A stretch of DNA of 63,498 nt, filler included, from Acidimicrobiia bacterium (GTDB lineage: Bacteria; Actinomycetota; Acidimicrobiia; Spongiisociales; JAHEDJ01), in the NCBI GenBank assembly GCA_029210695.1. It is 7 parts of 7 records of this genome, joined end to end, with 100 filler letters (N's around TTAATTAATTAA, not from the genome) between each part and the next. Parts side by side here need not be neighbours in the genome. Positions count along the whole stretch, not along the records: positions 39,665 to 47,789 come from JARGFH010000095.1; 6 more parts are not named here. One strand, 5' to 3'. Below the pieces are notes generated by a model. That model was not told where the DNA came from and did not search any database. It worked only from the letters and a program-made list of their open reading frames with translations. Below, piece after piece: positions 28,693 to 61,470 of this stretch. The position numbers and the translations under genes were made by a program. The first letter of the stretch is position 1. The number at the start of each line of letters is the position of its first letter.

Positions 28693-30634
28693 CAGGGGTT
28701 CCGCAGATGAAGGCTGTTTCTGGGCACACGTGAACGCGAAAGTGCTGGTCACGGCGTTGAGGCTGGCTGGCGGCCGCGAAATGTGTAGGCACACGCTAGG
28801 TGTTAGAGGTTCTTGGTTAGGTGAGTTAGCTGATGTAGAGTGTGGGCATGTATCTGCGGACGATCCAGCGGCGCAACAAGGACGGGTCGGTGGTCCGCTA
28901 CGTGCAGCTGGCCCACAACGTGCGTCATCCCCAGTCGGGGAACCCGGTGGCCAAGGTGATCCACAGCTTCGGGCGGGAGGACCGGCTGGACCGGGAGGCA
29001 CTGGGCCGGCTGGTCCGCTCCATCGCCCGCTATCTGGGTCCCGACGCCGAACTGGAGGCGACGGCGCCGGGCGGTGCGACGGCGCCGCTGCGGTTCGTGT
29101 CGTCCAAGGCGCTGGGCGGCGCATGGGCCCTGGACGGTCTGTGGCGGCGGGTGGGGATCGGCGAGGTGCTGGCCCGCCTGCTGGAGGGTCGACGCCTCGA
29201 TCCGCGGGCCGAGCGGGCCGTGTTCGCCATGGTCGCTAACCGTGCCCTCGAACCGCTCTCCAAGCTCGCCGCCGCCCGCTGGGTGGCGGAGCGGGCCGTG
29301 ATCCCGGGTCTGGACGACGTCGACGAGGACACCTTCTACCGGGCCATGGACTGGCTGTTGGAAGTCGAAGACGATTTGGTCGAGGCCGTGTACTGGGCCA
29401 CCGCCGATCTGTTGAACCTAGAGGTCGACCTGCTGTTTTTCGACACCACCTCCACCTACTTCGAGATCGACCAGCCCGACGCGCCGGGTGAGGGGGAGAC
29501 GGTCGGGTTCCGGGCCCGAGGCCACTCCAAGGACCACCGGCCCGACCTGCCTCAGGTGGTGATCGGCATGGCCGTCACCCGAGAAGGCATCCCCATCCGG
29601 GTGTGGTGCTGGCCAGGCAACACCAACGATCAGGCGCTGATCCGCCAGGTCAAAGACGACCTCAAAACGTGGAAGCTGACCCGGGTGGTGTGGGTCGCCG
29701 ACCGTGGCTTCTCCTCGGCGGAGAACCGCCGCTACCTCCAACGGGCAGGCGGCCACTACATCATCGGCGAAAAGCTCCGCGGCGATGGCCGCGAGGCCCA
29801 GGCGGCGCTGTCCCGCCAGGGCCGCTACCGCACCGTGGCCGCCAACCTGGGGGTCAAAGAGGTCGTCATCGACGACGCCACCATGCGCGACCGGTTCGTG
29901 GTTTGCCACAACCCCGAACAAGCCGAACGAGACCGGACCGTGCGCGACCAGCTTCTCACCCAGCTCGCCGACGCCATCGACGGCTCCGACCAGCTCACCA
30001 AGACCGCCCGCGCCGAGTTGGCCGGCGAGCTGGGCAACTACCCGGGGCTGAAACGGTTCCTGCGCACCACCCCCGGTGGGCTGCTGCGCATCGACCGCAG
30101 AGCCGTCGCCGCCGAGCAACGCCTCGACGGCAAGTTCCTGTTGCGCACCTCCGACCCCACACTGTCCGCCGAAGACATCGCCTTGGGCTACAAACAACTG
30201 CTCGAAGTCGAACGGGGCTGGCGGGACATGAAATCCACCCTCGACCTGCGGCCCGTCTACCACCGCCTCGAAGGCCGCATCCGCGCCCACGTGCTGCTGT
30301 GCTGGCTCGCCCTGCTCCTCATCCGCCTGGCCGAAACCGCCACCGGCGACACCTGGCGCAACCTCCGCCACCAGCTCGACCGCATGCACCTCGGGCTGTT
30401 CGCCGGTCCCGCCGGCCACGTCCTGCAACGCACCGAAACCACCCCCGGCCAGGCCGCCATCTTCAAGGCCCTAGGCGTCAACCAACCCAAACAGTTCCTC
30501 GACATCACCCCCGCCGGCACCGACAAGACTCCCGCCAGCGCGTAGGCACTACACGTCCCCGACAGTCCCGCGCGTTCTCCCTGCTCACGCGCACTTTCGA
30601 TGCCTACGCCGGCAGGCCAACTGCGGAACTCCGG
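28693..30634 (+). mobile_element. IS1634-family element, 1942 bp
   Basis: IRs CAGGGGTTCCGCAGATG and CCGGAGTTCCGCAGTTG (14/17); CCAG on both flanks. Confidence 0.88.
28848..30545 (+). CDS. IS1634-family DDE transposase
   Basis: FDTTSTYFE, GHSKDHRPDLPQV, VADRG, VERGWRDMK, RIRAHV. Confidence 0.93.
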   Translation: MYLRTIQRRNKDGSVVRYVQLAHNVRHPQSGNPVAKVIHSFGREDRLDREALGRLVRSIARYLGPDAELEATAPGGATAPLRFVSSKALGGAWALDGLWRRVGIGEVLARLLEGRRLDPRAERAVFAMVANRALEPLSKLAAARWVAERAVIPGLDDVDEDTFYRAMDWLLEVEDDLVEAVYWATADLLNLEVDLLFFDTTSTYFEIDQPDAPGEGETVGFRARGHSKDHRPDLPQVVIGMAVTREGIPIRVWCWPGNTNDQALIRQVKDDLKTWKLTRVVWVADRGFSSAENRRYLQRAGGHYIIGEKLRGDGREAQAALSRQGRYRTVAANLGVKEVVIDDATMRDRFVVCHNPEQAERDRTVRDQLLTQLADAIDGSDQLTKTARAELAGELGNYPGLKRFLRTTPGGLLRIDRRAVAAEQRLDGKFLLRTSDPTLSAEDIALGYKQLLEVERGWRDMKSTLDLRPVYHRLEGRIRAHVLLCWLALLLIRLAETATGDTWRNLRHQLDRMHLGLFAGPAGHVLQRTETTPGQAAIFKALGVNQPKQFLDITPAGTDKTPASA

Positions 30635-34794: not shown

Positions 34795-36219
34795 TTAGGT
34801 GTCGTAGTACATCGAGAACTCGTGCGGGTGCGGACGCAGCCGCAGCGCATCGACCTCGTGCACCTGCTTGTAGTCGATCCAGGCGTTGATGAGATCCATC
34901 GTGAACACGTCACCCTGAAGCAGGAAGTCGTGGTCGGCCTGGAGAGCAGCCAGCGCCTCTTCGAGGCTGCCGGGCACGGACGGCAGGTTCGCCAACTCGG
35001 AAGGCGGCAGGTCGTAAATATCCTTGTCGACCGGAGGGGGCGGCTCGATCTGGTTCTGAACCCCGTCGAGACCCGCCATGAGCATCGCCGCGAAGGCGAG
35101 GTAGGTGTTGGCCGAAGGATCCGGGCAGCGGAACTCGAGACGCTTGAGCGCCGGCTTCTGGGAGTACAGCGGGATACGCACCGCAGCCGACCGGTTGCGC
35201 TGGCTATACACCAGGTTGACCGGAGCTTCGTAGCCGGGCACGAGGCGCCGGTACGAGTTGGTGGTCGGAGCGGCGAATGCCAGCACCGCAGGAGCGTGCT
35301 TGAGAAGTCCTCCAATGTACCAACGGGCCATGTCCGAAAGCCCGGCGTATCCGTTCGGATCGTAGAACAGCGGCACGCCGTCCTTCCACAGGCTCTGGTG
35401 CGTGTGCATCCCTGAGCCGTTGTCCATGAACACCGGCTTCGGCATGAACGTGACCGTCTTGCCGTGTGCCCAGGCGACGTTCTTGACGACATACTTGAAG
35501 ATCGTGACGTCGTCGGCCTGGCGCAGCAGTGTGTTGTAGCGGATGTCGATCTCGGCCTGACCGGCAGTCCCGACCTCGTGGTGATGGACTTCGACCTTGA
35601 TGTTGAGCTTCTCGAGTTCGAGCGACATCTCGGATCGCAGGTCCTGGAAGTGGTCCGTCGGAGGAACCGGGAAGTAGCCCTCTTTGTATCCGGGCTTGTA
35701 GGCGAGGTTCTTACCATCCTCTTCGGCCGCGGTGTTCCATGCACCCTCGATCGACTGCACCTCATGGAACGACGAGAACTCATTCTGCATGAATCGAGCG
35801 GAATCGAAAATGTAGAACTCGGCCTCGGGGCCCCAGAATGAGGTATCGGCTATGCCGGTTCCGGACAGGTAGGCCTCAGCCTTGGCTGCGATGTAGCGCG
35901 GATCGCGGTCGTACGGCTCACCGGTGATTGGATCATGGACGAAGCAATAGAGCACCAGGGTCTTGTGCTTCATGAACGGATCGACGAACGCCGTGGCCGG
36001 GTCGGGCTTGAGGATCATGTCCGATTCCTGGATCTCCTGGAAGCCCCGAATCGAAGATCCGTCGAAACCGAACCCTTCAGTGAAACCATCCTCGTCGAGT
36101 TGGTCGGCCGGGATGGTGAAGTGCTGGACTTGACCCGGCAGATCACAGAAGCGAAGGTCGACGAATTGGCATTCCTCAGAAACGAGTTGCTGAAGAATAT
36201 CGGCTGCTGTTTTGCTCAC
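34795..36219 (-). CDS. glnA: Glutamine synthetase type I (adenylylatable GSI-beta)
   Basis: [43 protein letters not shown] adenylylation site; GTG with SD GAGGAG. Confidence 0.96.
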
Positions 36220-36295
36220 GTTGGGATTCTCCTCGGGTACCGGTTCCGGGCGCCGCTCTGCGGCCCCTGCGCTCCCCTGAGCGTTCCACGGATCC

Positions 36296-36333
36296 GTTTC
36301 CGCCGGGTTGCCCGAATGTGAATGGACGGTTAA
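36296..36333 (-). promoter_or_regulatory. GlnR binding boxes upstream of glnA
   Basis: TTAAC-n6-TTCAC-n6-GCAAC-n6-GAAAC, fitting the Streptomyces gTnAc-n6-GaAAc consensus. Confidence 0.75.
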
Positions 36334-36574
36334 CAGATCCGGGCTTGGAAAGGCCTGGGTGATGGGTCCAAACCCCGTCTCAGATTCCACGTTTCGGGCA
36401 GGTCCACCTTGAATCGTCAATAGCGACAAAGGCGAACGCCGGTCGCGATCTCATGGATGCACCTAGGAACCCGCACTGGGATTTGGCATTCGGCACCTGA
36501 CTCGAGGTTCGCATTGAGAGACGGCGAGCTTCATTCGGGTATCGTTTCCGACGTCGACCAAGAAGGAGGACCAC

Positions 36575-37900
36575 GTGGACAAACAGGCCGAGTATGTACT
36601 TCGCACCGTCGAAGAGCGGGGCATCCGGTTTGTCCGCCTGTGGTTCACCGACGTCCAGGGATTCCTGAAGTCGGTATCCATCAGTCCGGCTGAACTGGAG
36701 ACGGCGTTCGACGAAGGCATGACGTTCGACGGGTCGGCCATCGACGGCTATGCCCGGGTTCAAGAGGCCGACATGCTGGCCGTGCCGGATCCCGCCAGCT
36801 TTCAAATCCTCCCGTGGCGGCCCGAACAGCAGGTCGCCCGTATGTTCTGTGACATCGTCACTCCCGATGGGGAGCCCTTCGAAGGCGACCCCCGCTACGT
36901 GCTGCGACGCAACCTCCAGCGGGCCGCCGATCTCGGCTTCTCGTTCTACGTCGGACCCGAACTCGAGTACTTCTACTTCAAGAGTTCGAAAGGCAAACCC
37001 AAGGTGCTCGATCAGGGCGGCTATTTCGACCTGACCCCGCTCGACGTTGCGCAGGAATACCGGCGAACCACGATCAATGCTCTTGAGCAACTCGGCATCC
37101 CGGTGGAATACTCGCACCACGAGGTAGCGCCGAGCCAGCACGAGATCGACCTTCGCTATACAGACGCACTGACGATGGCCGACAACGTCATGACGTTCCG
37201 CCTCGCCGTCAAGGAAGTCGCCATCGAACACGGCATCTATGCCACGTTCATGCCGAAACCACTCGAAGCACACGACGGCTCCGGATTCCATATGCACCTG
37301 TCACTGTTTGAGGGGGACCGGAACGCCTTCTACGAAGCCGGGGCCGACAACGGGCTCTCGAAAGTGGCAGAGGGGTTCATCGCGGGCATCCTCAAGCATG
37401 CTCCCGAACTGACTGCCATCACGAATCAATGGGTCAACTCGTACAAACGTCTCGTGAAGGGTTTCGAAGCACCGATCTACACCTTCTGGGCGCGCAACAA
37501 CCAGTCCGCACTGATCAGGGTCCCAACGGTCAAGCGCGGGAAGGCCTCCTCGACGCGCATCGAGTACCGCGCACCCGATTCCGCCTGCAACCCGTACCTC
37601 GCCTTCTCGGTGTTGCTGGCTGCCGGCCTGGCCGGGATCGAGAACAACTACGAACTACCCGCCGAGGTGTCCAACAACATCTTCGAGATGACGACCGCCG
37701 AACGTAAGGCGCTGGGAGTCGGCAGGTTGCCGGCCACGCTCGATCATGCACTCGACGCCATGGAGGCTTCTGAGCTGATGGCGGATGCGCTCGGCGAGCA
37801 CATGTTCTCGTGGTTCCTTCGCAACAAGCGGAAGGAATGGGACAAATTCCAGAACCACGTGTCTGAGTTTGAACTCGAGAGGTATCTTCCCATCCTGTGA
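36575..37900 (+). CDS. glnA2: Glutamine synthetase family protein (GlnA2-like)
   Basis: VRLWFTDVQG, FDGSAIDG, HHEVAPSQHEID, ERYLPIL C-terminus. Confidence 0.9.
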   Translation: MDKQAEYVLRTVEERGIRFVRLWFTDVQGFLKSVSISPAELETAFDEGMTFDGSAIDGYARVQEADMLAVPDPASFQILPWRPEQQVARMFCDIVTPDGEPFEGDPRYVLRRNLQRAADLGFSFYVGPELEYFYFKSSKGKPKVLDQGGYFDLTPLDVAQEYRRTTINALEQLGIPVEYSHHEVAPSQHEIDLRYTDALTMADNVMTFRLAVKEVAIEHGIYATFMPKPLEAHDGSGFHMHLSLFEGDRNAFYEAGADNGLSKVAEGFIAGILKHAPELTAITNQWVNSYKRLVKGFEAPIYTFWARNNQSALIRVPTVKRGKASSTRIEYRAPDSACNPYLAFSVLLAAGLAGIENNYELPAEVSNNIFEMTTAERKALGVGRLPATLDHALDAMEASELMADALGEHMFSWFLRNKRKEWDKFQNHVSEFELERYLPIL

Positions 37901-39830: not shown

Positions 39831-40775
39831 ATGGGTAATCTCAGATTGTTCAAGAGAGGAGCAACTGTCACCAGCCGACCCGAACCGCGTGCCCGAGTTG
39901 AGCTCCGCCTGAGCGGAGGAAGCGACGGTGCCATTCCTCTGAACGAACTCGCTCAGGTCGCAAACCATGCGCAAGAGCTTGTTCGCAAGCTAGCCCGGGC
40001 GATAGCGGACAAATCTGGGCCGGGACGCCCACCCGCCGTGCTCGATCAGATGTCGGCGCTCGTTGCGGTTGGGATTCATCAAGGCAGTGCTGTCCTTGAC
40101 ATCGAAGCACCTTCGTGGAGTGGCGAATTCGACCTCGCAGAAGATGTCGGTTTCGACGCAGGGATTCAGGCGCTCGAAATGGTGGCGGACGCAATGGCCG
40201 CAGTAGCAGGTTCCCAGCCACTTCCGGATAAGTTCAACGAGTCCAGCCGGGCGGACCTCGCACAACTCCTTGAAGCGACATCGTCGTACGAGAGACTCGA
40301 ATGGAACCTGTCGCACCACGGCAAAGAAGTGAGGGCCAGCGTGTCACCGATGGCAATCTCCGTGCCGGCCCTGCATCAGCCGACAAAGCGGCCACCTGGG
40401 CGCGGAACGGTGGAGGGCGAGCTATACGCCCTGAACGCTCGCACCGGGAGCTATCAACTTGAGGATGCCGCTCTGTACACCATTCGCTGCCACGTCGAAC
40501 CTGGCAGCATTCTGGCCGCAGAGCTTGATCGCCTCGTCCGCCGAACGGTCGCGGTGACGGGGATCGTCGATTGGGACAAAGCCGGCAGAGCGACCGACGT
40601 GAGGGTCGAGGCCATCAACGCACGGCCGCATGAAGCTACGAATGATTTCTGGGACTTCAGACTTGAGAAGGCCCTTTCGGATGTCCACGAAATCACCGGA
40701 ATCGAAGATCTCGCTCTTGCGGAAATAACTCCAGAAGAAGCTGACGCTTTCAGAACGGCGATGGGATTCGAATGA
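39831..40775 (+). CDS. Uncharacterised 314-aa protein coupled to a PIN gene
   Basis: Long ORF; beta-rich C-terminal half; ATGA overlap with the PIN gene. Confidence 0.75.
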   Translation: MGNLRLFKRGATVTSRPEPRARVELRLSGGSDGAIPLNELAQVANHAQELVRKLARAIADKSGPGRPPAVLDQMSALVAVGIHQGSAVLDIEAPSWSGEFDLAEDVGFDAGIQALEMVADAMAAVAGSQPLPDKFNESSRADLAQLLEATSSYERLEWNLSHHGKEVRASVSPMAISVPALHQPTKRPPGRGTVEGELYALNARTGSYQLEDAALYTIRCHVEPGSILAAELDRLVRRTVAVTGIVDWDKAGRATDVRVEAINARPHEATNDFWDFRLEKALSDVHEITGIEDLALAEITPEEADAFRTAMGFE

Positions 40776-41185
40776 CCCCGGATGCGGTGGTCGTGGACAC
40801 AAACGTCTTCTCCGCCGTGCTCACCCGCCGATTGCTTGCATCCCAATACGCGGAGTATCTCTCCGGCAAACGCCTAATCATTTCATTCCAGACAGTCGCC
40901 GAGATTCGCTTTGGTGGCATGGCTGCTGGATGGGGAGAGGCCCGAATGCGGGAGGCGGAACGAGCCATCGCCAAGGCAGCGACGATTCCGCCACACGATG
41001 AACTTGCGACGGAGTGGGCCTCGTTACGAGTGGAGTGCAAACGGGTCGGCCACGCCCTCGCTTCCAAAACCCACATGAGTGATCTCTGGATCGCGGCCAC
41101 GGCCAGCCTGATCGGAATACCACTCGTCAGCCATGACGCGATCTTCAAGGGAACACCGGGTCTCACCGTCCTCACTCTGCTGTGA
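40772..41185 (+). CDS. PIN-domain (VapC-like) nuclease
   Basis: VVDTNVFS, TVAEI, SDLWIAATA, LVSHD. Confidence 0.92.
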   Translation: MTPDAVVVDTNVFSAVLTRRLLASQYAEYLSGKRLIISFQTVAEIRFGGMAAGWGEARMREAERAIAKAATIPPHDELATEWASLRVECKRVGHALASKTHMSDLWIAATASLIGIPLVSHDAIFKGTPGLTVLTLL

Positions 41186-41258: not shown

Positions 41259-42980
41259 GAGCGTGGGTCAGTATCTGCCAGCGAGGCGATCGGCTGGCTG
41301 ACGGTTGAAGGTGTTGTGGGTTCTCGCGTTTTGGGTTGGGTTCGACGAGAATGCGGGGCATGTCCTACGACTGTGATGATGATGCCCTTTTCGAGATCGC
41401 CGACGACGATGAACCGGCGGTGAAGGTTCCTGCGGGGAGGTCGAAGGTGTTCCGTCGTTACGACCCGGACCAGTCGTTCCTGATGCCGCCGTCTCTTGAT
41501 GACTGGCTCCCGCAAGACCATACGGCCCGGTTCGTTTCTGAGGTCGTTGACGACCTCTTGGATCTCTCGGTGGTGTATGACTCGTATGTTTCAGCGTCTG
41601 GTGCACCGCCGTATGACCCGACGATGATGTTGAAGCTCTTGTTGTATGCGTATTCGACGGGGGTGACGTCGTCTCGGGAGATGGAACGTCGCTGTCACAT
41701 TGATGTGGCGTTCCGTTGGCTGTCTGCGAACAACGCCCCGGATTACCGGTCGATTGCCCGGTTCCGTCGCCGTCACCTCGCTGCGTTGGACGACTTGTTC
41801 ACCCAGGTCCTTGTCCTGTGCTCAGAAGCAGGACTCGTCACGTTGGGTCGGGTTGCTTTGGATGGTACGAAGCTGCGGGCGTCTGCTTCTCGGCACAAGG
41901 CGATGAGTTATGGGCGTCTCGGACCCAGGATTGAACAGCTCGAGGCTGAGGTCGCGGCGATCCTTGCTGAGGCTGAAGCTGTTGACCGGGCAGAAGATGA
42001 CGAGTTCGGGGAAGACCGGCGTGGTGATGAGGTCCCACCGGAGTTGGCTCGTCGCGAGTCCCGTCTCGTCAAGTTGCGTGCAGCCAAAGAAGCGACCGAG
42101 GCCGAGGCGGCAGACAAGGCCGCGAAGAAAGCGGCAGACAAGGCTGAGAAGAACGGTGCCGACGAGACCGCGATAAGCGAGGCCGCAGCGACAGCTGCTG
42201 GTGGGGCGACCCCCGCTGATCGGACGCAGCGGAGTTTCACGGATCCCGAATCTCGGATGATGAAAACGACCGACGGTTTCCACTACGCCTACAACGCCCA
42301 AGCAGTTGTCGACGAGTACTCACAGGTCGTTCTTGCGGCAAACGTCACCGATCAGGCAGGCGACGTTCAACAGCTGATCCCGATGATCGACGCTACAACA
42401 GACAGCCTTACAGATGCCGGTATCGAAACGACCCTGGGGGTGGTGCTTGCCGACGCTGGCTACTGCTCCCAAGACAACCTGGAACACATCTCAGATTCAA
42501 AAGTCAACGCTTTGATAGCCACGGGACACATCAGACGCAACGAACAGGTACCAGACACGCCAAGAGGCCCGATCCCGAAAGACGCAACCCGACGCGAACG
42601 GATGGCACGCCGGCTGCGTACCAAACCCGGGCGGGCCGACTACGCCAGACGCAAAGCAATCGTCGAACCAGCATTCGGACAGATGAAAGTCCGCCAACAC
42701 GCCGGGCATCTCCGGCTACGAGGAATCGCCGGAGCGCAAGGCGAGTGGACCCTCCATGTCATCTGCCACAACCTACGCAAACTCGGAAACGCCGCCAATA
42801 TGGCCACCGCAGCAGCTTCCTGACACCCACCGGGCCACTTCTGGCGCCATTCGAACGATCTGGGGTCCTGTCATCTGCGGGCTCCGATGAAGGTTCCATC
42901 ATGATTCTCGGTCACATCGGATCCAAGACCTTGACCTACCCCAAGAATCGGGCACACGACACCAATTCTGACTCATGCTC
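41259..42980 (+). mobile_element. Complete IS1182-family element, 1722 bp, CTAG target duplication
   Basis: IRs GAGCGTGGGTCAGTAT and GAGCATGAGTCAGAAT (13/16); CTAG at 41255-58 and 42981-84. Confidence 0.92.
41360..42823 (+). CDS. IS1182-family transposase
   Basis: PPYDP.MMLK, PDYRSIARFR, LDGTK, TDPESR, ADAGY, VEPAFG, HNLRKL; start uncertain. Confidence 0.93.
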   Translation: MSYDCDDDALFEIADDDEPAVKVPAGRSKVFRRYDPDQSFLMPPSLDDWLPQDHTARFVSEVVDDLLDLSVVYDSYVSASGAPPYDPTMMLKLLLYAYSTGVTSSREMERRCHIDVAFRWLSANNAPDYRSIARFRRRHLAALDDLFTQVLVLCSEAGLVTLGRVALDGTKLRASASRHKAMSYGRLGPRIEQLEAEVAAILAEAEAVDRAEDDEFGEDRRGDEVPPELARRESRLVKLRAAKEATEAEAADKAAKKAADKAEKNGADETAISEAAATAAGGATPADRTQRSFTDPESRMMKTTDGFHYAYNAQAVVDEYSQVVLAANVTDQAGDVQQLIPMIDATTDSLTDAGIETTLGVVLADAGYCSQDNLEHISDSKVNALIATGHIRRNEQVPDTPRGPIPKDATRRERMARRLRTKPGRADYARRKAIVEPAFGQMKVRQHAGHLRLRGIAGAQGEWTLHVICHNLRKLGNAANMATAAAS

Positions 42981-43023
42981 CTAGGGCTGCCACAGCTCGG
43001 ACACACCCCGTGAGCTACGAGCG

Positions 43024-43716
43024 CTACTCCAATCGATCACTCTTCTGGATGTTGTGCTTCGCGCAGAGAAGTTGAATGTTGTCGGCAGTGAGTGACGAAC
43101 CTCCCCAAGAGAACGGGATCATGTGATCGAAGTGGAGATTCTCCGTTGATCCACACTTCACACATTTGCCCTTGTCGCGCTTCCACACTGCCAACTTCAC
43201 ATGAGTGGGAACAAGCCGTGTGTGATCAAGCTCCTGATCTTCAGGGTCCACGGCTTCGGCGTCCTCCTCGACTAGTGCCAGCTTGAACTTGCAGACGTAG
43301 CGGCCCTCGAGCTCCTGTTGCCAGGCGTCGACGAGATGGAACAAACCGGTGTACACCCAGATACCCGAGCGGACCTTCTCATAGACCCGCACCCGCTCAG
43401 GCGGTAGTTCATTGTTCTGGAATGCTTCAGCCGCCATGTAGAACAGGCCGTTCTGAGTGAGGGTCCCGTTTTCTGTGAGTAGCGGTTGGTCCAGGGTCTT
43501 GGGGTCAGGGTTGTCGGTACTCTTCGGTTGATCGTGCCCTTCGTAAATGAGAGTGCGACCTTCGTCGGTTATCTGGTCCTCGTATGGAGCTCCGGGGCGC
43601 ACGCTCATCAGCAAAACGCTGTGGTCCGGTCGGAGTCGAAAGTTCATACCCCGTTGGAGCATGGCGCCTTCGCGGGAACACATCTCGAGGTAGGCAATCA
43701 CGTCACCGGGTTGCAC
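43024..43716 (-). CDS. HNH endonuclease with N-terminal SRA-like domain (putative modification-dependent restriction)
   Basis: PYED..LIYEG..NG..VRVYEK..YTGLF.LVD; CVKCGS..DHMIP..GG..NIQLLC..HN. Confidence 0.8.
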   Translation of the reverse strand: MQPGDVIAYLEMCSREGAMLQRGMNFRLRPDHSVLLMSVRPGAPYEDQITDEGRTLIYEGHDQPKSTDNPDPKTLDQPLLTENGTLTQNGLFYMAAEAFQNNELPPERVRVYEKVRSGIWVYTGLFHLVDAWQQELEGRYVCKFKLALVEEDAEAVDPEDQELDHTRLVPTHVKLAVWKRDKGKCVKCGSTENLHFDHMIPFSWGGSSLTADNIQLLCAKHNIQKSDRLE

Positions 43717-43769
43717 GAACTACATGGTATCCGCCACTTTCTGTCAGCCGCGTCCTGTATGTTCCGGGT

Positions 43770-45425
43770 GTGGGGAAATACGACGCATGGCGACCGTTCT
43801 TCAGGGATCTCAAGCCTGGTGAACGTCGCGTGCCGCTCGAGGCCCTAAGTGATCTACTTGAGGGTGGATTACCGCAAGCCGCATATGAGCACCAGGCCTG
43901 GTGGTCGAACACGGGATACGCATCCGCGGCCTGGGCTGAATACGACTGGTACGCGCATCCGAAGCTGCGCGACGGGTACGTATTGTTCAATCTCACGCCC
44001 GGCCGTCGCGGCCGAAGCCCCGCTTCATCCAAACGAAGCAGCTATTCGGACCCAAGAACGATTACACCGAACACGCCTCCCCAGACTCAATCGAAGTCGG
44101 CAGCGGAGGTGATCCTGTTGGGCTGCGTTTCGGAGAAACGAGACCACCCGGCGCCAGCAAAAGACCTCTATATCTCCCCGTTGTGGGAACGGCGCCGCGC
44201 ATATGCCGAAGCGTCGGGACAGCCGTGGTACATCCTGAGTGCCGAACACGGCCTCCTGCATCCGGAGCAGGTCACCGCACCCTATGACGTCTCACTCAAA
44301 GATCTATCGGTTGATCAACGCAGGGCTTGGGCGCGTCGCACAGCACCTCGGTTGCTCGAGACACTGGTCGCCGCTGAGGCGGAGACAGTGGAGATCCATG
44401 CCGGCACCGCCTACACGGAATCAGGGCTCCGGCAGGCACTCGAGGCGTTGGGTTTTCAAGTTTTCATCCCGTTGGCCCACCACCGCATCGGTGTGCAACT
44501 CGCCTGGTACGACAATCCCAACCACCCGGATATCACCGCTCCGAGGTCGAGCCCAACGTCTAAGCCGCTCCAACAGCCGGCGCCGGATCATGTGGTGCGA
44601 CTCGCTGCTGACTACCGCTCGAAGGCGCTTGGCGGGGGGTGGGACGGACTTCCCGAGGTCGTGTGTGTAAAGGCAATGCGGGCGGCCGGTGCCGACGATC
44701 GAACCATTCGCCGGTGGATCACCTTTGCTGCTGCCATGGATCGCGCCCGCGACGCCGTGCAGCTATGGGAGGCATCCGTGGAGGCATATCGTCAGGCACC
44801 ATGGATTTACGATCCGTGGCAGGTCATTGCGAGACCTCACGACGATCTCCAGGCTGCTCTGCGACAGTACTCGGTGAGTCAGCGCCACGGCCCCGACTCC
44901 GACGCCTGGCAAACCATCGCCCAAACACTCACCGACACGGCCTGCCCAGGGTCAGTCATCGCAGCATTGAACGGCAAACCCACGAATGCATCAGACCTGC
45001 TTGAGGCGCTGCAGCGGAAGGGCCCCCAAGGAGTTCCCCGGTTCCCGCTACTTAGAGGGCCGAAGATCGGTCCGCTGTGGGTGCGGATGCTCGCTTGTCC
45101 GGGCGGTGCCGACATTCGCGGTATGGAGGTGATCCCAGTGGCCGTTGACACCCATGTTCAGCGGGTTACTGAGATGTTGGGTTTGGTGAGTCCAGTCGAA
45201 CTGAGTGGTCGCCACCGACGTGACATCCAGCAGGTTTGGTTCGATGCTGTGAACCAGGCGGGGATGTTCGGAGCTCCTTCTCCCATCGATGGCACGTCAG
45301 CCGGTATCGATCCCGCCCTCTGGGCTCTAGGCAGGGAAGGTTGCTCGAACTGCGAGCGGGCGAAAATAAAGCGACCAATCGGGTCGATATGCGATCTTTG
45401 CGTGCTGGGCCGGGTTGAATCATGA
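43770..45425 (+). CDS. Three-domain protein: DUF7662-like + DUF6884 + HhH-GPD glycosylase-like with CxxC..CxxC tail
   Basis: GKY..LPQAA..AWWSN..AW; LLGCVSEK..AKDLY.SPL..ILSAEHGL..PYD; LRGPKI..PVAVDTHV.R; DPALW; CSNC..CDLC. Confidence 0.8.
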   Translation: MGKYDAWRPFFRDLKPGERRVPLEALSDLLEGGLPQAAYEHQAWWSNTGYASAAWAEYDWYAHPKLRDGYVLFNLTPGRRGRSPASSKRSSYSDPRTITPNTPPQTQSKSAAEVILLGCVSEKRDHPAPAKDLYISPLWERRRAYAEASGQPWYILSAEHGLLHPEQVTAPYDVSLKDLSVDQRRAWARRTAPRLLETLVAAEAETVEIHAGTAYTESGLRQALEALGFQVFIPLAHHRIGVQLAWYDNPNHPDITAPRSSPTSKPLQQPAPDHVVRLAADYRSKALGGGWDGLPEVVCVKAMRAAGADDRTIRRWITFAAAMDRARDAVQLWEASVEAYRQAPWIYDPWQVIARPHDDLQAALRQYSVSQRHGPDSDAWQTIAQTLTDTACPGSVIAALNGKPTNASDLLEALQRKGPQGVPRFPLLRGPKIGPLWVRMLACPGGADIRGMEVIPVAVDTHVQRVTEMLGLVSPVELSGRHRRDIQQVWFDAVNQAGMFGAPSPIDGTSAGIDPALWALGREGCSNCERAKIKRPIGSICDLCVLGRVES

Positions 45426-46269
45426 GGAGCGGAGCGAGAACGTGGCTCTCTCAACGCTCCTCCTAGGCCTCAGAACACCTATCGAAGAAAATCTCTTCGT
45501 TGGCAAGGCCCGGTGGGAGATGCTGACCGCGAAGGTGGCTCAGCAAGAGGATGCGCCGCACGCCGACTACTACGACGAGCAAGTGTGGACCTTCTTGTTG
45601 GCGTGCGGGTACGCCGTCGGAGGCCCGGAAGGAGTCTCTGCACTCGAAGATCTTCTGACCGGCGGCGCCGGAGCATGGCGGACCGGTCACAAGATCTGGT
45701 TCGAGGTCCTGCCCACTCCCCCACGATTTCAGGAGGGCAACACCAATGTCGACCTTGCCGTGGGCGACATCCGGCTGCGCAGCGGCGTGGAGGGCGGGAT
45801 CGAGCTCGATCCGGAGTCGACGCCCAACTGGGTTTGCCTGACGGAGGCGAAATGGTATTCGGATATCGACACGAAGGTGTCCAACCAGCGAGAGCGCAAC
45901 CAGCTGGCGAGGGTGGCGGAGAACGCAGCTTGCCTGCAATCAGAAGGAGCCATCGTTGATCGACCGTTTGTGACACTGTTGACGCCGAGGAGGTTTCGTT
46001 CCAGCGAGCTCCGATCGCGGCTTTACGTCTACAAGTACCACGAATACCGGGATGATCCTGCACGGTTGGCCTTCGAATGGCGAGCAATGGACAATGCAAT
46101 GCCACCCCGGTCAAACAGCGGCTGGCGGTACCCGAAAAACCCCGACGAACGGGCCCGATCAATTCGCTTCCACTGGGTCACCTACGACGACCTTCTGAGC
46201 GAGGACAACCTGCCTGACACCCCAATCCGTGATGCCCTCGTTCGGGCTTTCGAGGATTGGACTCCCTAG
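45415..46269 (+). CDS. Putative PD-(D/E)xK nuclease-fold protein
   Basis: WFE..TNVDLAV..TEAKW..RNQLAR; overlaps the upstream gene. Confidence 0.7.
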   Translation: MNHEERSENVALSTLLLGLRTPIEENLFVGKARWEMLTAKVAQQEDAPHADYYDEQVWTFLLACGYAVGGPEGVSALEDLLTGGAGAWRTGHKIWFEVLPTPPRFQEGNTNVDLAVGDIRLRSGVEGGIELDPESTPNWVCLTEAKWYSDIDTKVSNQRERNQLARVAENAACLQSEGAIVDRPFVTLLTPRRFRSSELRSRLYVYKYHEYRDDPARLAFEWRAMDNAMPPRSNSGWRYPKNPDERARSIRFHWVTYDDLLSEDNLPDTPIRDALVRAFEDWTP

Positions 46270-47162
46270 CCCGCCACACGCGCCGGCCCGTGGAACACCT
46301 GCTCCCGGTGCCATTCGACGTACTGCTCGTCGACGGGCCGCGCCCCTGACTGTGGGCCGCGCACGTCTGCGCCGGCCAGGCTGAGCACCAGCCGCTCCGC
46401 CGATTCACCCGACCCGGAGAACCGCTGTGACACAGCGATGGTGTGATCGATCGTCAGGCCGACGACGCCGAGGTCGAGCAGCTTGTGATGGATCGTGCAG
46501 AGAGCCAGACCGTTGGCAACCTCGTCGGGCCCTTCAAAGGCATGCCACCGCACGTGAGCAGCATCGAGCCCAATGGTGCGGTCGGCGAGCCGTCCATCGA
46601 AACCGCAGAAGGCGCATCGACGCTCGTAGGCGGTCAGCACCTTGTCGCGGAACTCCGGGTCGCGGCGACGAATCGTCCGGGATACGACGGTCAATGCAAG
46701 AGGGCTCTCGGTGAGCCCGACGTCCTCCAGCAAGTCGGTGCGATAGGAATCACCGAACTCCTCCAGCAGCGCCCCCACGATGGTTGCCCGGATGGCCGGG
46801 TCGGTGATGGCCGCCGCTAAATCCTCGGTGATTTCCCCGATGCCGACCTCGCGCAGTTCCGACAACCGGGTCTCGGGCCACGGCCGGCCGTCCGAGGTGC
46901 TGACTCGCCAGAAACCCTCGTCGTTCTGGAGATGATGAAACGGGTACTGGGGGGTTGCCTTGGTGACGGGCGGGCCGTACCGGTCGAGGAGATCGGCAAC
47001 CACGGGTTCCGCTTCTGCGAACGTGACTCGCCGGCTGCCCGTCTGGGTGAATCGTCCGATCATGTAGAGGAGTAGGAGCGGCTTGTGCGGTGCCCGAACT
47101 CCACGTTGCGACCAGCGACGGAGGCTTGAGATACGTTCGACCCAGTCGGTGGCGGTCAACAT
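46266..47162 (-). CDS. Phosphorothioate-DNA-binding restriction endonuclease (SBD-HNH)
   Basis: RAPHKPLLLL..YPFHHL..GFW sulfur-binding signature; FRDKVL.AY..CAFCG..AAHV..NGLALC..HH. Confidence 0.88.
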   Translation of the reverse strand: MLTATDWVERISSLRRWSQRGVRAPHKPLLLLYMIGRFTQTGSRRVTFAEAEPVVADLLDRYGPPVTKATPQYPFHHLQNDEGFWRVSTSDGRPWPETRLSELREVGIGEITEDLAAAITDPAIRATIVGALLEEFGDSYRTDLLEDVGLTESPLALTVVSRTIRRRDPEFRDKVLTAYERRCAFCGFDGRLADRTIGLDAAHVRWHAFEGPDEVANGLALCTIHHKLLDLGVVGLTIDHTIAVSQRFSGSGESAERLVLSLAGADVRGPQSGARPVDEQYVEWHREQVFHGPARVAG

Positions 47163-47190
47163 CTGAGATTGAACCTACCAAGCGGCCGGC

Positions 47191-47713
47191 TCAACCCAGC
47201 AAGTTCTCTCGAACGGCTTTCTCGATTCTGGTCATCCGGTTCCGAACGGTCTTGGGAGCAAGTCCGGTGACTGCTGCTGCCTCGTCTACTTCGGCATTCG
47301 CAATCCAGATCATTCGGGCGATCGTCCGGTCGGCGTCGTCCTCCGCTATGGCATCGACGGCCTCCATAAATCGATCGGTCGTGTCGACCGTCCCCCAACC
47401 GAGACCCAGGTCGTAGCCGAGACGCGACCCGTGGTCTATGACCTGTGAGTAACCGCCCTCATCAACGCGCACCTGCGCATCCTTGATCCGCTTCCAAACC
47501 CTGAGGGCGTCCCTGGCGCGATCTCCGGCGACCTTCCTTACGAACCCGTGTGGATTATCGATCTCGTGACCGGCCGACGCTTTGCGCCAATACTCCTCCA
47601 CCGCAATGGCTGCTACCTCATCGTTCAGATTCAGTGCCGCGGATCGAAATATGACCCGATCTACCTCTTCTCTGGCAGCCATAAGCAACTCGGCGTCGAG
47701 TGTGTTGTCGGAC
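47191..47713 (-). pseudogene. ECF-sigma-like protein with its 5' end cut by IS21
   Basis: GFVRKVA...ARD region 2; EAAAVTGLAPKTVRNRMTR HTH; frame open up to the IS boundary. Confidence 0.6.
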
Positions 47714-47789
47714 TGACCACGCTCATTGAAACTCCCCAGACCTGCTCACTGAAATTCCCCACCTCCTGAGAGGGAATACCCACTGTTGG
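47714..47789 (+). mobile_element. IS21-family terminus
   Basis: TG start; repeated GCTCA(T/C)TGAAA(C/T)TCCCCA boxes. Confidence 0.75.
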
Positions 47790-47889
47790 NNNNNNNNNNN
47801 NNNNNNNNNNNNNNNNNNNNNNNNNNNNNNNNNTTAATTAATTAANNNNNNNNNNNNNNNNNNNNNNNNNNNNNNNNNNNNNNNNNNNN

Positions 47890-60509: not shown

Positions 60510-61470
60510 GATGCCTGTTTGGTTGTCAAGGGGGTGTTTGGGCGCGTTTGGGATTCCGGCTCGACCGGCGATCGGTAGTTGGGCGTAGGCTGGGGGGTGG
60601 CCCGGGGTGGCTGCGCTGAAGAGCCGGTGATCAGGATGGAAAGCCGGCCGCGCAAGCGTCAGGGACGTTCCTGTTTGCCCCCGGGTCCTAGCTTGTCTGT
60701 TGGTCGGCTTGGAGGTGGCGGTAGACGACGTCGGAGAGGCGCCGTTTCAACGCCCGGATCGCTTCTTTGGGTGTTCTACCTTCTTCGAGTTTGCGTTCGT
60801 AGAAGATGCGGCCCTCGGTATTGGGGTGATGCAGCTGGCAGATGGCAATGGTGTGGATGGCATGGTTGAGCATCCGGTTGCCTCGGGGGTTGAGCCGATG
60901 CCGTTTCCGTGATCCTGATGATGCTTCGATGGGGGCGGTGCCGTTGTAGGCGGCGTAGTGATGGCTTATCGGGAACCGAGAGACGTTACCGGTGTGGCCG
61001 ATCAACAAGGCGGCGACGACGGGTCCGACACCGTAGATGTTGACCAGGGTGGTGCCCGACGCCTCCACGGGCACGGCCAGGCGGGTCTTGGAGGCATCTC
61101 GTTCTTTGTTGAGTCTCCGCACCTCCCCCAACAGCTGGTGGGCGATACGTTTGCGTTCGGTCTCGATCATCGATACCGGCCGGACCCGCTGCAGCAGCCC
61201 GGCGGCTCTGTTTGGGGTCATCTCAGTGCCCAGACCACCGGGGATCAGGGCCGCCAGCACAGCGTGAAGCCGGCAGGCAGCCTGGGTCTTGAGGCTGAAG
61301 AGCTGGGTGTGACGGTTGGCCAACATCCGCAGCACCGTCACATGATCCTCGGTAGTCACCGCCCGCAGCCCCGACTGACGAAGCGCCACGATCGCCACCG
61401 AGCGGGTGTCGTCGGAGTCGTTCTTCTGCGAGCGGGTCGAATCGAGTACCCGGACCCGGGCCGCCTGGGC
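60510..61470 (-). mobile_element. 5'-truncated IS110-family element (transposase remnant 60688-61470 plus 3' non-coding end)
   Basis: KND..D, GVGPVVAA, GTAPIEASSG, HRLNPRGNR, RALKRRLSD; N-terminus lost at CTAG 61471; outward TTGACA at 60524-29. Confidence 0.82.

What the first reader, a model, noticed from the sequence alone, without database searches (positions are those of the whole stretch)
43770..46269. Candidate new defence system: DUF7662-DUF6884-HhH-GPD glycosylase fusion plus coupled nuclease
Seen: a 551-aa protein with three modules separated by P/S/T linkers: an AWWSN domain, a DUF6884/YaaA-like domain (GC..K, DLY, ILSA.HGL, YD) and an HhH-GPD fold with lyase-type Lys (GPKI), catalytic-type Asp (VDTHV) and four terminal Cys. 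It overlaps an E..D..EAK nuclease-like gene. Established: some glycosylases restrict phages with modified bases; DUF6884 is recalled near 7-deazaguanine (dpd) loci. Inference: modified-base excision followed by strand cleavage. I know of no named system with this architecture.
Basis: partly seen in the sequence, partly recalled or inferred. Interest (0 to 1): 0.85.

Follow-up and report, generated by a model that had tools for sequence, protein, structure and literature searches.

The report
Fused DNA glycosylase, nuclease not coupled
A three-part protein that joins a DpdC-like DNA-base-handling domain to a divergent endonuclease-III-type DNA glycosylase sits between two modification-dependent restriction genes and probably attacks modified foreign DNA, but the nuclease gene next to it is an independent neighbour, not its partner.

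Summary
The sequence features are real. Gene A (43770-45425, 551 aa) has DUF7662, DUF6884 and a C-terminal domain that Pfam does not recognise. That domain folds like endonuclease III/MutY. It keeps a Lys (K432) and an Asp (D460) that align, through a sister family, with E. coli Nth K120 and D138, and it has four conserved Cys.

Gene B is a PD-(D/E)xK-type protein with an intact E..D..ExK motif. It most likely starts at GTG 45442, 16 nt after A's stop, so the two genes do not overlap.

The proposed two-gene system is not supported. In 47 genome loci holding B relatives, none has an A-type gene within 10 kb. No A-B fusion was found. B's neighbours vary from locus to locus.

A looks self-contained. 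Its modules also occur in permuted order. DUF7662-DUF6884 is also fused to a second, Nth-like HhH-GPD type and to GIY-YIG nucleases.

The window context is two type IV-like HNH enzymes, an insertion sequence (IS) and a PIN toxin. With published glycosylase defences (Brig1, Dag1/2), this makes a modification-dependent base-excision restriction enzyme the best reading (about 0.5).

The target base is unknown; a 7-deazaguanine derivative is only a lead. I could not examine A's neighbours in other genomes. This is a new variant of a known kind.

The parts
43770..45425 (+). Gene A, 551 aa: DUF7662 - DUF6884 - divergent Nth-like HhH-GPD domain
   Evidence: ORF and translation; Pfam; AlphaFold model pLDDT 90.1 with three domains; 97 relatives
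43770..44003 (+). Module 1, residues 1-78: DUF7662 (contains AWWSN)
   Evidence: Pfam PF24698 E 4.2e-6, just above the cut-off; 24 of 56 aligned relatives match it; other relatives have HTH, HARE-HTH, HD or OGG-like N-termini instead
44004..44090 (+). Linker 1, P/S/T/R-rich, disordered
   Evidence: pLDDT below 50 for residues 80-103; sequence
44091..44534 (+). Module 2, residues 108-255: DUF6884 (DpdC/YaaA-like), with CVSEK at 44124-44138 and LSAEHG at 44235-44252
   Evidence: Pfam PF21818 E 8.5e-43; PADLOC PDC-M57A E 3.9e-28 and DpdC E 0.004; weak YaaA match in the PDB, E 0.052; motifs located; the CxxxK and LSAxxG motifs are named in PMC11701544
44535..44570 (+). Linker 2, P/S/T-rich
   Evidence: pLDDT dips around residues 251-270; sequence
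44571..45422 (+). Module 3, residues 268-551: divergent endonuclease-III-like HhH-GPD domain
   Evidence: Foldseek against PDB and viral models; sub-threshold Pfam HhH-GPD match in 17 of 56 relatives; collinear hhalign to E. coli Nth; 634 representative relatives
45063..45065 (+). K432 in LRGPKIG: candidate Schiff-base (lyase) lysine
   Evidence: K in 110 of 121 relatives; aligns to the first K of GVGQKK in the sister family, which aligns to Nth K120; transitive and weak
45147..45149 (+). D460 in PVAVDTHVQRV: candidate catalytic aspartate
   Evidence: D in 120 of 121 relatives; aligned to Nth D138 (IAVDTHIFRV); Pfam HhH-GPD sub-threshold match covers residues 452-489
45342..45401 (+). Cys cluster C525-x2-C528-x12-C541-x2-C544 (metal site, type unknown)
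   Evidence: C in 113-116 of 121 relatives; spacing differs from Nth's, and hhalign places it over the Nth cluster region
45431..45434 (+). GGAG ribosome-binding site for gene B
   Evidence: Sequence read directly; 7-nt spacer to GTG 45442
45442..46269 (+). Gene B, 275 aa (284 aa if started at TTG 45415): PD-(D/E)xK-type nuclease-like protein of an unnamed family; an independent neighbour
   Evidence: 167 relatives, none with a Pfam domain; model pLDDT 93.9; start site; not linked to A elsewhere
45703..45852 (+). B catalytic-type motif: E97 (45703), D113 (45751), E144-A-K146 (45844-45852)
   Evidence: Invariant or nearly invariant in 70 sequences; the three motif residues lie on three successive strands of the model that follow a helix; codons checked
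43024..43716 (-). Neighbour: SRA + HNH protein (type IV-like), divergent from A with a 53-nt gap
   Evidence: Pfam SAD_SRA E 3.5e-8 and HNH E 2.7e-7
46266..47162 (-). Neighbour: phosphorothioated-DNA-binding HNH restriction endonuclease, convergent with B
   Evidence: NCBIfam NF045808 E 3.4e-84, 282 bits against a cut-off of 180; PADLOC HNH and mREase_IV
41336..42823 (+). Neighbour: IS transposase (DUF772 + DDE_Tnp_1)
   Evidence: Pfam
39831..41185 (+). Neighbour: 314-aa unknown protein plus PIN/VapC-like gene (4-nt overlap)
   Evidence: ORFs; Pfam PIN E 2.6e-12

Best explanation
Gene A encodes a self-contained, single-chain enzyme that acts on DNA bases. Its DUF7662-DUF6884 half is most likely the part that finds and flips out an unusual base, as the DUF6884 protein DpdC must do with preQ0 in DNA. 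Its C-terminal half is a divergent endonuclease-III-type HhH-GPD glycosylase. It would cut that base off with D460 and may nick the strand through K432 (beta-lyase).

In this window A is one of four adjacent, probably independent genes that act on modified or foreign DNA: SRA-HNH, A, B and a PT-DNA HNH enzyme. Together they form a small island with an IS element and a PIN toxin. [quoted passage not shown]

Gene B is a separate PD-(D/E)xK nuclease-like gene. It is probably co-transcribed here but is not a conserved partner.

Shown: the domains, the fold, the conserved residues, the modular and permuted architectures, and the lack of A-B linkage. Inferred: glycosylase activity, the lyase step, the defence role and the target base. 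A 7-deazaguanine derivative is the leading guess only.
For: - **Domains and motifs.** Pfam DUF7662 and DUF6884, with intact CxxxK and LSAxxG motifs (motifs as defined in PMC11701544).
- **Fold.** Foldseek matches MutY, Nth and NTHL1 (prob 1.00, TM by target 0.66-0.72). It also matches a haloarchaeal virus endonuclease III (E 1.3e-6, TM 0.78).
- **Catalytic residues.** D460 aligns to Nth D138. K432 aligns to Nth K120 through the sister family, which has the same K-to-D spacing of 28. K432 is kept in 110 of 121 relatives and D460 in 120 of 121.
- **The modules belong together.** 57 of 97 relatives carry DUF6884 plus this HhH domain. Four relatives have the permuted order HhH-DUF6884-DUF7662. A second fusion family joins DUF7662-DUF6884 to a TIGR03252/Nth-like HhH-GPD. 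DUF7662-DUF6884-GIY-YIG proteins occur as single genes among IS elements on two Rhodococcus plasmids.
- **Conflict-type fusion partners.** HEPN, HD, AbiEi-like HTH and OGG-like domains.
- **Context.** SRA-HNH and PT-DNA restriction genes on either side, with an IS and a PIN gene nearby.
- **PADLOC.** The candidate PDC-M57A matches the DUF6884 part.
- **Precedents.** Dag1/2 HhH glycosylases defend against 7-deazaguanine phages (10.1101/2025.10.29.685425) and Brig1 does so for glucosyl-hmC (PMC11078745, abstract seen).
- **B is independent.** 0 of 47 B loci hold A-type domains, and no fusions were found.
Against: - No activity or phenotype has been measured for this family.
- The C-terminal domain fails Pfam's HhH-GPD cut-off (13.3 bits against 26.2). 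PDB fold matches have E no better than 2.7e-3 with the whole protein as query.
- The Lys assignment rests on weak transitive alignments. The first helix of the hairpin motif is not seen in the model's secondary structure.
- The neighbours of A relatives in other genomes could not be examined. Defence-island enrichment therefore rests on one window plus two plasmid loci of a sibling architecture.
- The DUF6884 member YfjM was pulled down on abasic and ribonucleotide baits (PMC10220248, table passage), which fits repair equally well.
- Phages themselves encode DUF6884 proteins, so the domain is not defence-specific.
- PDC-M57 is an untested candidate.
- A and B lie 16 nt apart with a shared-looking transcript, so local cooperation cannot be excluded.
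Confidence: 0.5

Rival explanations
1. One reading: A and B form an obligate two-gene defence system. A excises a modified base and B then cleaves the strand at or near the abasic site.
For: The genes are on the same strand and 16 nt apart, and B's ribosome-binding site abuts A's stop codon. B has an intact PD-(D/E)xK-type motif. The cluster of A's 100%-identical copy (P0003) has 3 member sequences and the cluster of B's 95%-identical relative (P0100) has 4. That is compatible with the pair recurring in close strains, although the listed contigs of the two clusters differ.
Against: - 0 of 47 genome loci with B relatives (33-47% identity) hold any DUF7662, DUF6884 or A-type HhH ORF within 10 kb. 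The same profiles found all three domains in the window.
- 0 of 120 B relatives carry A domains, and 0 of 142 HhH-domain relatives carry a B domain.
- No contig length is shared between 65 A-type hits and the 120 listed B hits. This is an indirect test.
- If K432 is a lyase lysine, A needs no nuclease.
- Sibling architectures are single genes.
Confidence: 0.12
2. A is a DNA-repair enzyme, a base-excision-repair accessory for endogenous damage such as oxidised or alkylated bases or abasic sites. It sits in the island by chance.
For: It has an Nth/MutY-like fold. It is fused in some relatives to OGG-like glycosylase domains. The DUF6884 protein YfjM was enriched on abasic and RNA-base baits (PMC10220248). 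YaaA, a distant relative, is linked to oxidative stress (PMC11701544).
Against: - The family is rare and patchy. There are 97 word-sharing hits among 5.8 billion sequences and 634 representatives in 1.84 billion.
- N-terminal modules vary and the domain order is permuted.
- Fusion partners such as HEPN, HD, AbiEi-like HTH and GIY-YIG are typical of conflict systems.
- Sibling genes sit among IS elements on plasmids.
- In the window A is flanked by two modification-dependent HNH enzymes and an IS.
Confidence: 0.2
3. A is a DNA-modification or counter-defence enzyme of a mobile element. For example, it could edit or remove a base modification (DpdC-like chemistry plus base exchange or removal) to protect or reprogramme DNA rather than to destroy it.
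For: DpdC, a DUF6884 example, is a modification enzyme (PMC10164549; PMC11888242). Phages encode DUF6884 proteins. 89 plasmid records hold DUF6884 genes, 33 of them on conjugative plasmids. The fold search also hits the queuine-salvage glycosylase DUF2419 (E 4e-3).
Against: - No dpdA, dpdB or preQ0-synthesis genes were seen among the 43 window ORFs scanned or the 10 ORFs of the island.
- HhH-GPD enzymes are known as hydrolytic or lyase glycosylases, not base inserters (established knowledge).
- The GIY-YIG siblings point to DNA cutting.
- The A-type HhH domain has no match in the phage or plasmid collections.
Confidence: 0.08

Closest known systems
Dag1/Dag2 and related defence-associated glycosylases (Getz et al., bioRxiv 10.1101/2025.10.29.685425)
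   Same: Both are HhH-superfamily glycosylase folds that escape sequence-based detection. Both have a Lys/Asp catalytic pair (Dag1 K118, D184). Both lie among mobile and defence genes and are proposed to attack modified phage DNA.
   Different: As far as I read the paper, the Dags are integron-cassette proteins, and its main text has no occurrence of 'fusion', 'fused' or 'DUF'. A carries DUF7662 and DUF6884 modules and a CX2CX12CX2C site.
Endonuclease III (Nth) / MutY
   Same: Same fold. The VAVDTHV.RV Asp motif is almost identical to Nth's IAVDTHIFRV. A Gly/Pro-rich loop precedes the Asp and there is a C-terminal Cys cluster.
   Different: The Pfam and NCBIfam models do not reach their cut-offs. 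The Lys-to-Asp spacing is 28 rather than 18. The Cys spacing is CX2CX12CX2C, not Cx6Cx2Cx5C. The hairpin reads LLRGPK instead of LPGVGRK. A is fused to two extra modules and is not a core genome gene.
DpdC of the Dpd 7-deazaguanine system
   Same: DUF6884-type domain (PMC11888242). DpdC acts on a modified base inside DNA (PMC10164549).
   Different: The PADLOC DpdC model matches only weakly (E 0.004). There are no other dpd genes in the window. DpdC is not fused to a glycosylase.
YfjM (B. subtilis) / YaaA (E. coli)
   Same: YaaA-like fold of the DUF6884 module with CxxxK and LSAxxG motifs, and a predicted base-flipping cleft (PMC11701544). There is a weak profile match to YaaA structure 5caj.
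   Different: These are stand-alone small proteins linked to damage or oxidative stress. They are not fused to effectors.
Type IV restriction enzymes built as reader domain + effector (SRA-HNH, SBD-HNH; both are A's neighbours here)
   Same: A single chain joins a modification or lesion reader to a DNA-damaging domain, in a mobile island. The sibling DUF7662-DUF6884-GIY-YIG proteins fit the same plan.
   Different: The analogy concerns how it works, not membership.
PADLOC candidate PDC-M57 (guilt-by-embedding, bioRxiv 10.1101/2024.01.29.577857)
   Same: The PDC-M57A model matches A's DUF6884 part (E 3.9e-28).
   Different: It is an untested multi-gene candidate. Its other components could not be looked up: the supplements are closed and 0 papers mention 'PDC-M57'. 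B matches no PADLOC model, and the match does not cover the glycosylase domain.
Brig1 (Hossain et al., Nature 2024, PMC11078745)
   Same: A glycosylase used as single-gene antiviral defence against a modified base.
   Different: By my recollection Brig1 belongs to the uracil-DNA-glycosylase-like superfamily and targets alpha-glucosyl-hmC. Only the abstract was seen here.

Membership tests
HhH-GPD glycosylase superfamily | Two-lobed helical fold of Nth/MutY/Ogg | tested here: met
   Foldseek against PDB: MutY, Nth and NTHL1, prob 1.00, TM by target 0.66-0.72, though E only 2.7e-3 or worse with the 551-aa query. Viral endonuclease III: E 1.3e-6, TM 0.78.
HhH-GPD glycosylase superfamily | Gly/Pro-rich loop followed by the invariant catalytic Asp | tested here: met
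   CPGGA...PVAVD460THVQRV. D460 aligns to Nth D138 and D is present in 120 of 121 relatives.
HhH-GPD glycosylase superfamily | Helix-hairpin-helix with Lys at the Nth K120 position (bifunctional members) | tested here: inconclusive
   K432 aligns to the first K of GVGQKK in the sister family, and that K aligns to Nth K120. The hairpin is LLRGPK, not LPGVG, and the first helix is not called in the model.
HhH-GPD glycosylase superfamily | Pfam PF00730 at its gathering score | tested here: not met
   13.3 bits against 26.2 for P0001. 17 of 56 relatives match below threshold, best E 0.0011.
Nth/MutY [4Fe-4S] subfamily | Cx6Cx2Cx5C cluster loop | tested here: not met
   The spacing is C525-x2-C528-x12-C541-x2-C544. 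The sister fusion family does keep the Nth spacing.
HhH-GPD glycosylase superfamily | N-glycosylase activity | not testable with these tools
DUF6884 (PF21818) | Pfam gathering score and the CxxxK + LSAxxG motifs | tested here: met
   146.2 bits against 30. C119VSEK123 and L156SAEHG161 are present. The motifs are as defined in PMC11701544.
Dpd system (DpdC) | Match to DpdC and presence of dpdA/dpdB and restriction genes nearby | tested here: not met
   PADLOC DpdC E 0.004 over 51 residues. No TGT, DndB-like or preQ0-synthesis genes among the 43 window ORFs scanned or the 10 ORFs of the island.
PADLOC PDC-M57 | All component genes present | tested here: inconclusive
   Only the A component matches. 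B and four other nearby ORFs match no PDC-M57 model. The composition of the candidate was not readable.
Dag defence glycosylases | Homology to Dag1-Dag24 and protection against 7-deazaguanine phages | not tested
   The sequences are in closed bioRxiv supplements. Only the shared superfamily fold is known.
PD-(D/E)xK nuclease superfamily (gene B) | Conserved acidic residues and Lys (D...(D/E)xK) on the core strands | tested here: met
   E97, D113 and K146 are invariant and E144 is at least 90% conserved. The residues lie on strands 94-100, 112-117 and 139-145, followed by a helix at 163-173.
PD-(D/E)xK nuclease superfamily (gene B) | Significant fold or profile match to a known member | tested here: inconclusive
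   Foldseek against PDB: best E 0.056, prob at most 0.25. MspJI, NucC, EcoT38I, McrC, Cas4 and PaqCI are in the list. Atlas TM 0.51 to a PDDEXK_4 cluster. No Pfam, NCBIfam, PADLOC, PHROGs or PDB profile hit.
Two-gene A+B system | Conserved adjacency or fusion of the two genes across lineages | tested here: not met
   0 of 47 B loci hold A-type domains. No fusions in 0 of 120 and 0 of 142 proteins. The A side was tested only indirectly.

The most novel reading that the evidence does not exclude
DUF7662-DUF6884 is a portable reader of a hypermodified base in DNA, most plausibly 7-deazaguanine derivatives given DpdC. Evolution has plugged it into interchangeable DNA-damaging effectors: two different HhH-GPD glycosylase types and GIY-YIG nucleases, in either domain order. 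This would define a previously unrecognised class of single-chain, modification-dependent 'base-excision restriction enzymes'. It would also give a first function to a widespread DUF.
Probability: 0.3. Interest if true: 0.75.

Novelty: new variant of a known kind. Interest (0 to 1): 0.55.

Why it matters
Glycosylase-based immunity is recent (Brig1 in 2024, the Dag families in 2025) and is so far described for compact single-domain enzymes.

A family that couples a DpdC-like domain to glycosylase or nuclease effectors would show how bacteria build readers for hypermodified phage DNA. It would assign a role to DUF6884 and DUF7662. It could also yield enzymes that detect or cut specific modified bases.

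This case is also a caution for genome mining. Tight spacing inside a defence island, here 16 nt, does not make two genes a system.

Tried and rejected
- **Complex prediction of A with B**: no verdict (score 0.00, mark 0.32). I do not use it as evidence either way.
- **The listing of cluster members** for accession adjacency of A and B relatives: the database was switched off.
- **Sequence and profile searches of the PDB.** A gave only chance-level hits and a weak YaaA match. B gave nothing.
- **tblastn searches.** A against plasmids matched only the DUF6884 part: 89 records, 0 covering at least 80% of the query. B against plasmids gave no match. The HhH domain against phages gave no match.
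- **Global hhalign to Nth** failed. The local alignment is collinear but weak (E 0.016).
- **Foldseek of B against the PDB** gave nothing significant.
- **PHROGs.** Only the DUF6884 part of A matches, two families of unknown function. B matches none.
- **Promoter and terminator scan of 42800-47800.** No promoter-like site was found. One terminator-like site lies on the minus strand inside A, which is within the number expected by chance.
- **tRNA scan.** No tRNA in the window, so no tRNA-linked island border.
- **Literature.** 'PDC-M57' returned 0 papers. 'DUF6884' is held by 4 papers, 2 of them listed. 'YaaA' + 'glycosylase' + 'phage' returned nothing relevant.
- **Considered and rejected.** The longest ORF of A from ATG 43584 (613 aa): it overlaps the divergent SRA-HNH gene, and homologues start at MGKYD. 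B's TTG 45415 start: see the observation check.
- **Not done.**
  - I did not run a 'longer' length search for fused forms of B. An A-B fusion would fall within the lengths searched from A's side and the HhH profile search had no stated length limit (best 150 listed).


Full report
**What is there**

The finding spans two same-strand ORFs.

Gene A runs from GTG 43770 to the stop at 45425 and is 551 aa. The longer ORF from ATG 43584 would overlap the divergent gene at 43024-43716. It is also not supported by homologues, which start with MGKYD just as the GTG start does.

Pfam finds two domains in A:
- DUF7662 at residues 29-59 (26.9 bits against a cut-off of 26).
- DUF6884 at residues 114-248 (E 8.5e-43).

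PADLOC matches the DUF6884 part to its candidate PDC-M57A (E 3.9e-28) and weakly to DpdC (E 0.004).

The last 284 residues match nothing in Pfam, NCBIfam or PDB sequences.

An AlphaFold model built on 56 relatives has mean pLDDT 90.1. It shows three folded modules. Linker 1 (residues 80-103) is below pLDDT 50. Linker 2 dips in confidence, with residues 258-260 below 50.

**The C-terminal module is a divergent endonuclease-III-type domain**

Fold evidence:
- With the whole model as query, Foldseek's best PDB matches are MUTYH, MutY, endonuclease III, NTHL1 and the queuine-salvage glycosylase DUF2419. Probabilities are 1.00 and TM by target reaches 0.72. E-values are only 2.7e-3 or weaker, and none is at or below 0.001.
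- Against viral models, an endonuclease III of Halogranum tailed virus 1 matches at E 1.3e-6 with TM 0.78 over 257 columns.

Sequence-level evidence:
- 17 of 56 relatives match Pfam HhH-GPD below threshold (best E 0.0011). P0001 itself scores 13.3 bits against a cut-off of 26.2, over residues 452-489.
- A local hhalign to E. coli Nth is weak (E 0.016) but collinear. It puts PVAVD460THVQRV on IAVD138THIFRV.

The lysine:
- A sister family of fusion proteins (P0068, P0073, P0075, P0078, P0083, P0084) matches NCBIfam TIGR03252, and all of these except P0084 also match endonuclease III models.
- Of those aligned to Nth directly, P0075, P0080, P0083 and P0086 align across the hairpin. P0086's GVGQKK falls on Nth's GVGRK, and IAYDVHVRRV falls on the Asp motif. 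P0068 aligns only from the Asp motif onward. All of them carry the canonical Cys cluster.
- The A-domain profile aligns GPK432 to that GQK.
- The Lys-to-Asp spacing is 28 in both families, against 18 in Nth.
- K432 is therefore plausibly the Schiff-base lysine, but the chain of alignments is weak.

Conservation across 121 relatives with a near-complete domain:

| Residue | Kept in (of 121) |
|---|---|
| D460 | 120 |
| K432 | 110 (R in 5) |
| W437 | 120 |
| R439 | 121 |
| W380 | 121 |
| Four Cys (525, 528, 541, 544) | 113-116 |

The Cys spacing, CX2CX12CX2C, is not the Nth/MutY cluster spacing. Whether the site binds Fe-S or zinc is open.

**The three modules belong together**

Among the 97 relatives, local profiles give this breakdown:
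- 57 have DUF6884 plus this HhH domain.
- 9 have the HhH domain without DUF6884.
- 31 have DUF6884 with other C-termini.

A profile of the HhH domain finds 634 representatives (E at or below 0.001) among 1.84 billion, 166 of them at E at or below 1e-30.

Among the best 150 of these:
- Four have the reverse order HhH-DUF6884-DUF7662 (P0242, P0250, P0317, P0359).
- Three have DUF7662 plus HhH without DUF6884 (P0260, P0287, P0297).

Other fusion partners are OGG-like glycosylase, HARE-HTH, HD, Swt1-like HEPN, DUF4268, AbiEi-like HTH and AAA_22.

DUF7662-DUF6884 is also joined to GIY-YIG nucleases. On two Rhodococcus plasmids such a protein is a lone gene among IS elements.

Repeated, permuted fusion of the same reader-like half to different DNA-damaging domains is the pattern of single-chain type IV-like enzymes. 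That comparison is my inference.

**What is known about DUF6884**

- The Pfam paper (PMC11701544, passages read) describes CxxxK and LSAxxG motifs, a YaaA-like fold and a positively charged cleft. It also reports an AlphaFold3 model in which YfjM flips a nucleotide.
- YfjM was enriched on abasic and RNA-base baits (PMC10220248, table passage).
- PMC11888242 (passage) gives dpdC as a DUF6884 example.
- DpdC converts preQ0-DNA to ADG-DNA on its own (PMC10164549, abstract and passages).
- A has both motifs, C119VSEK and L156SAEHG.
- Phages also encode small DUF6884 proteins.

**Gene B**

B has 167 relatives, none with a Pfam domain. E97, D113, K146 and R161-N162-Q163 are invariant, and E144 is nearly so.

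The model (pLDDT 93.9, pTM 0.92) places E97, D113 and E144/K146 on three successive strands, after a helix and followed by another helix and strand. That layout matches the restriction-endonuclease-like core as I know it.

No database match is significant:
- Foldseek's best E is 0.056. MspJI, NucC, EcoT38I, McrC and Cas4 are among the weak hits.
- The Atlas gives TM 0.51 to a PDDEXK_4 cluster and TM 0.80 to a cluster of GNAT fusions.

B's start is most likely GTG 45442. P0100 (95% identical, 275 aa) and the Atlas record begin there, and GGAG lies 7 nt upstream. A and B are therefore 16 nt apart and do not overlap.

**Is B coupled to A?**

I spent the single genome scan on B. It returned 47 loci from many phyla, including one archaeal MAG.

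- Profiles of the three A modules found nothing in any of the 47 loci within 10 kb. They recovered all three modules in the window, and the B profile recovered B in 46 of the 47 loci.
- No neighbour family is shared by more than 5 loci, and those loci come from related genomes.
- I scanned 136 neighbouring ORFs from 43 loci. I left out L015, L023 and L042 as near-duplicates, and L046 because it lacks a B ORF.
- Of those 43 loci, 22 have defence- or mobile-type neighbours. These include WYL-WCX regulators, OLD-like ATPase-TOPRIM, HNH, DUF1156/DUF499, a methylase, toxin-antitoxin genes, transposases and an integrase. The rest show ordinary metabolic genes.
- In L044 the B gene is split by a transposase.
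- No B relative carries A domains (0 of 120). No HhH-domain relative carries a B domain (0 of 142).
- No contig length is shared between 65 A-type hits and the 120 listed B hits. This test is indirect.

Limits of this test:
- The B loci are 33-47% identical to B.
- The contigs of its closest relatives (P0100-P0103) and of all A relatives could not be read.

On this evidence B is an independent, mobile nuclease-like gene, and the pairing is local.

**Context in the window**

The stretch from 39.8 to 47.7 kb holds, in order:
1. an unknown 314-aa gene plus a PIN gene;
2. an IS transposase;
3. an SRA-HNH gene;
4. A;
5. B;
6. a phosphorothioated-DNA-binding HNH endonuclease (NCBIfam E 3.4e-84);
7. 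a small HTH-like gene.

On either side lie glutamine synthetases, a regulator, a methyltransferase and cytochrome genes. No dnd, ssp or dpd genes appear among the ORFs scanned, and there is no tRNA.

**Comparison with the known, and verdict**

Glycosylases as antiviral effectors are established:
- Brig1 (PMC11078745, abstract seen).
- The Dag families, which are HhH-superfamily proteins, defend against 7-deazaguanine phages and use a Lys/Asp pair (10.1101/2025.10.29.685425, sections 5, 7 and 8 read).

That preprint's main text has no occurrence of 'fusion', 'fused' or 'DUF'. Only 4 papers in the library mention DUF6884, and neither of the two I read links it to a glycosylase. The architecture therefore appears undescribed within what I could search. 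The bioRxiv supplements (Dag sequences, PDC-M57 composition) were closed and might change this.

I rate the finding a new variant of a known kind, with interest 0.55. The domain reading of the first stage is good. The two-gene system is not supported. The defence role of A is plausible but untested.

Noticed in passing
window 43024-43716 (-) and 46266-47162 (-): An SRA+HNH protein and a phosphorothioated-DNA-binding HNH endonuclease flank the finding. No dnd/ssp modification genes were seen among the window ORFs scanned, so both look like stand-alone modification-dependent enzymes.
   Followed up: partly
window 39831-41185 (+): A 314-aa protein of no known family overlaps by 4 nt the start of a PIN/VapC-like gene. 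Its only match is a sub-threshold DUF6285 hit. It is unusually large for an antitoxin partner.
   Followed up: no
window 41336-42823, 28842-30545, 60688-61398: Three transposase genes: two DDE type and one IS110 type. The first lies directly beside the island.
   Followed up: no
L008, L019, L022, L023, L033 (around 8.9-11.3 kb of each locus): In Verrucomicrobiales genomes the B relative sits directly after a WYL-WCX regulator gene. In L008, L019, L022 and L023 it also sits before an ADP-ribosylglycohydrolase + PTPase-like gene, which looks like a different conserved cassette for B. L033, an unclassified uncultured-bacterium MAG, shows only the upstream WYL-WCX gene.
   Followed up: partly
L024, L026, L034, L040; L002, L024; L044: B relatives lie next to OLD-like AAA_15/TOPRIM genes (L024, L026) or AAA_15/AAA_21 ATPase ORFs without a TOPRIM match (L034, L040). 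They lie after GNAT acetyltransferases in L002 and L024, and the Atlas also lists a cluster of GNAT-B-like fusions. In L044 the B gene is split by a DDE_5 transposase.
   Followed up: partly
P0242, P0250, P0317, P0359; P0228, P0235, P0252, P0249: The A-type HhH domain occurs in permuted order (HhH-DUF6884-DUF7662). It is also fused to Swt1-like HEPN, HD, DUF4268 and AbiEi-like HTH domains.
   Followed up: partly
fold search of the A model against viral structures; PHROGs 5935 and 5436: Phages of Caulobacter, Halobacterium, Mycobacterium and Burkholderia encode small DUF6884/YaaA-like proteins. The domain is therefore used on the phage side as well.
   Followed up: no
window 34795-36429 (-) and 36575-37900 (+): Two divergently oriented glutamine synthetase genes lie just left of the island.
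   Followed up: no
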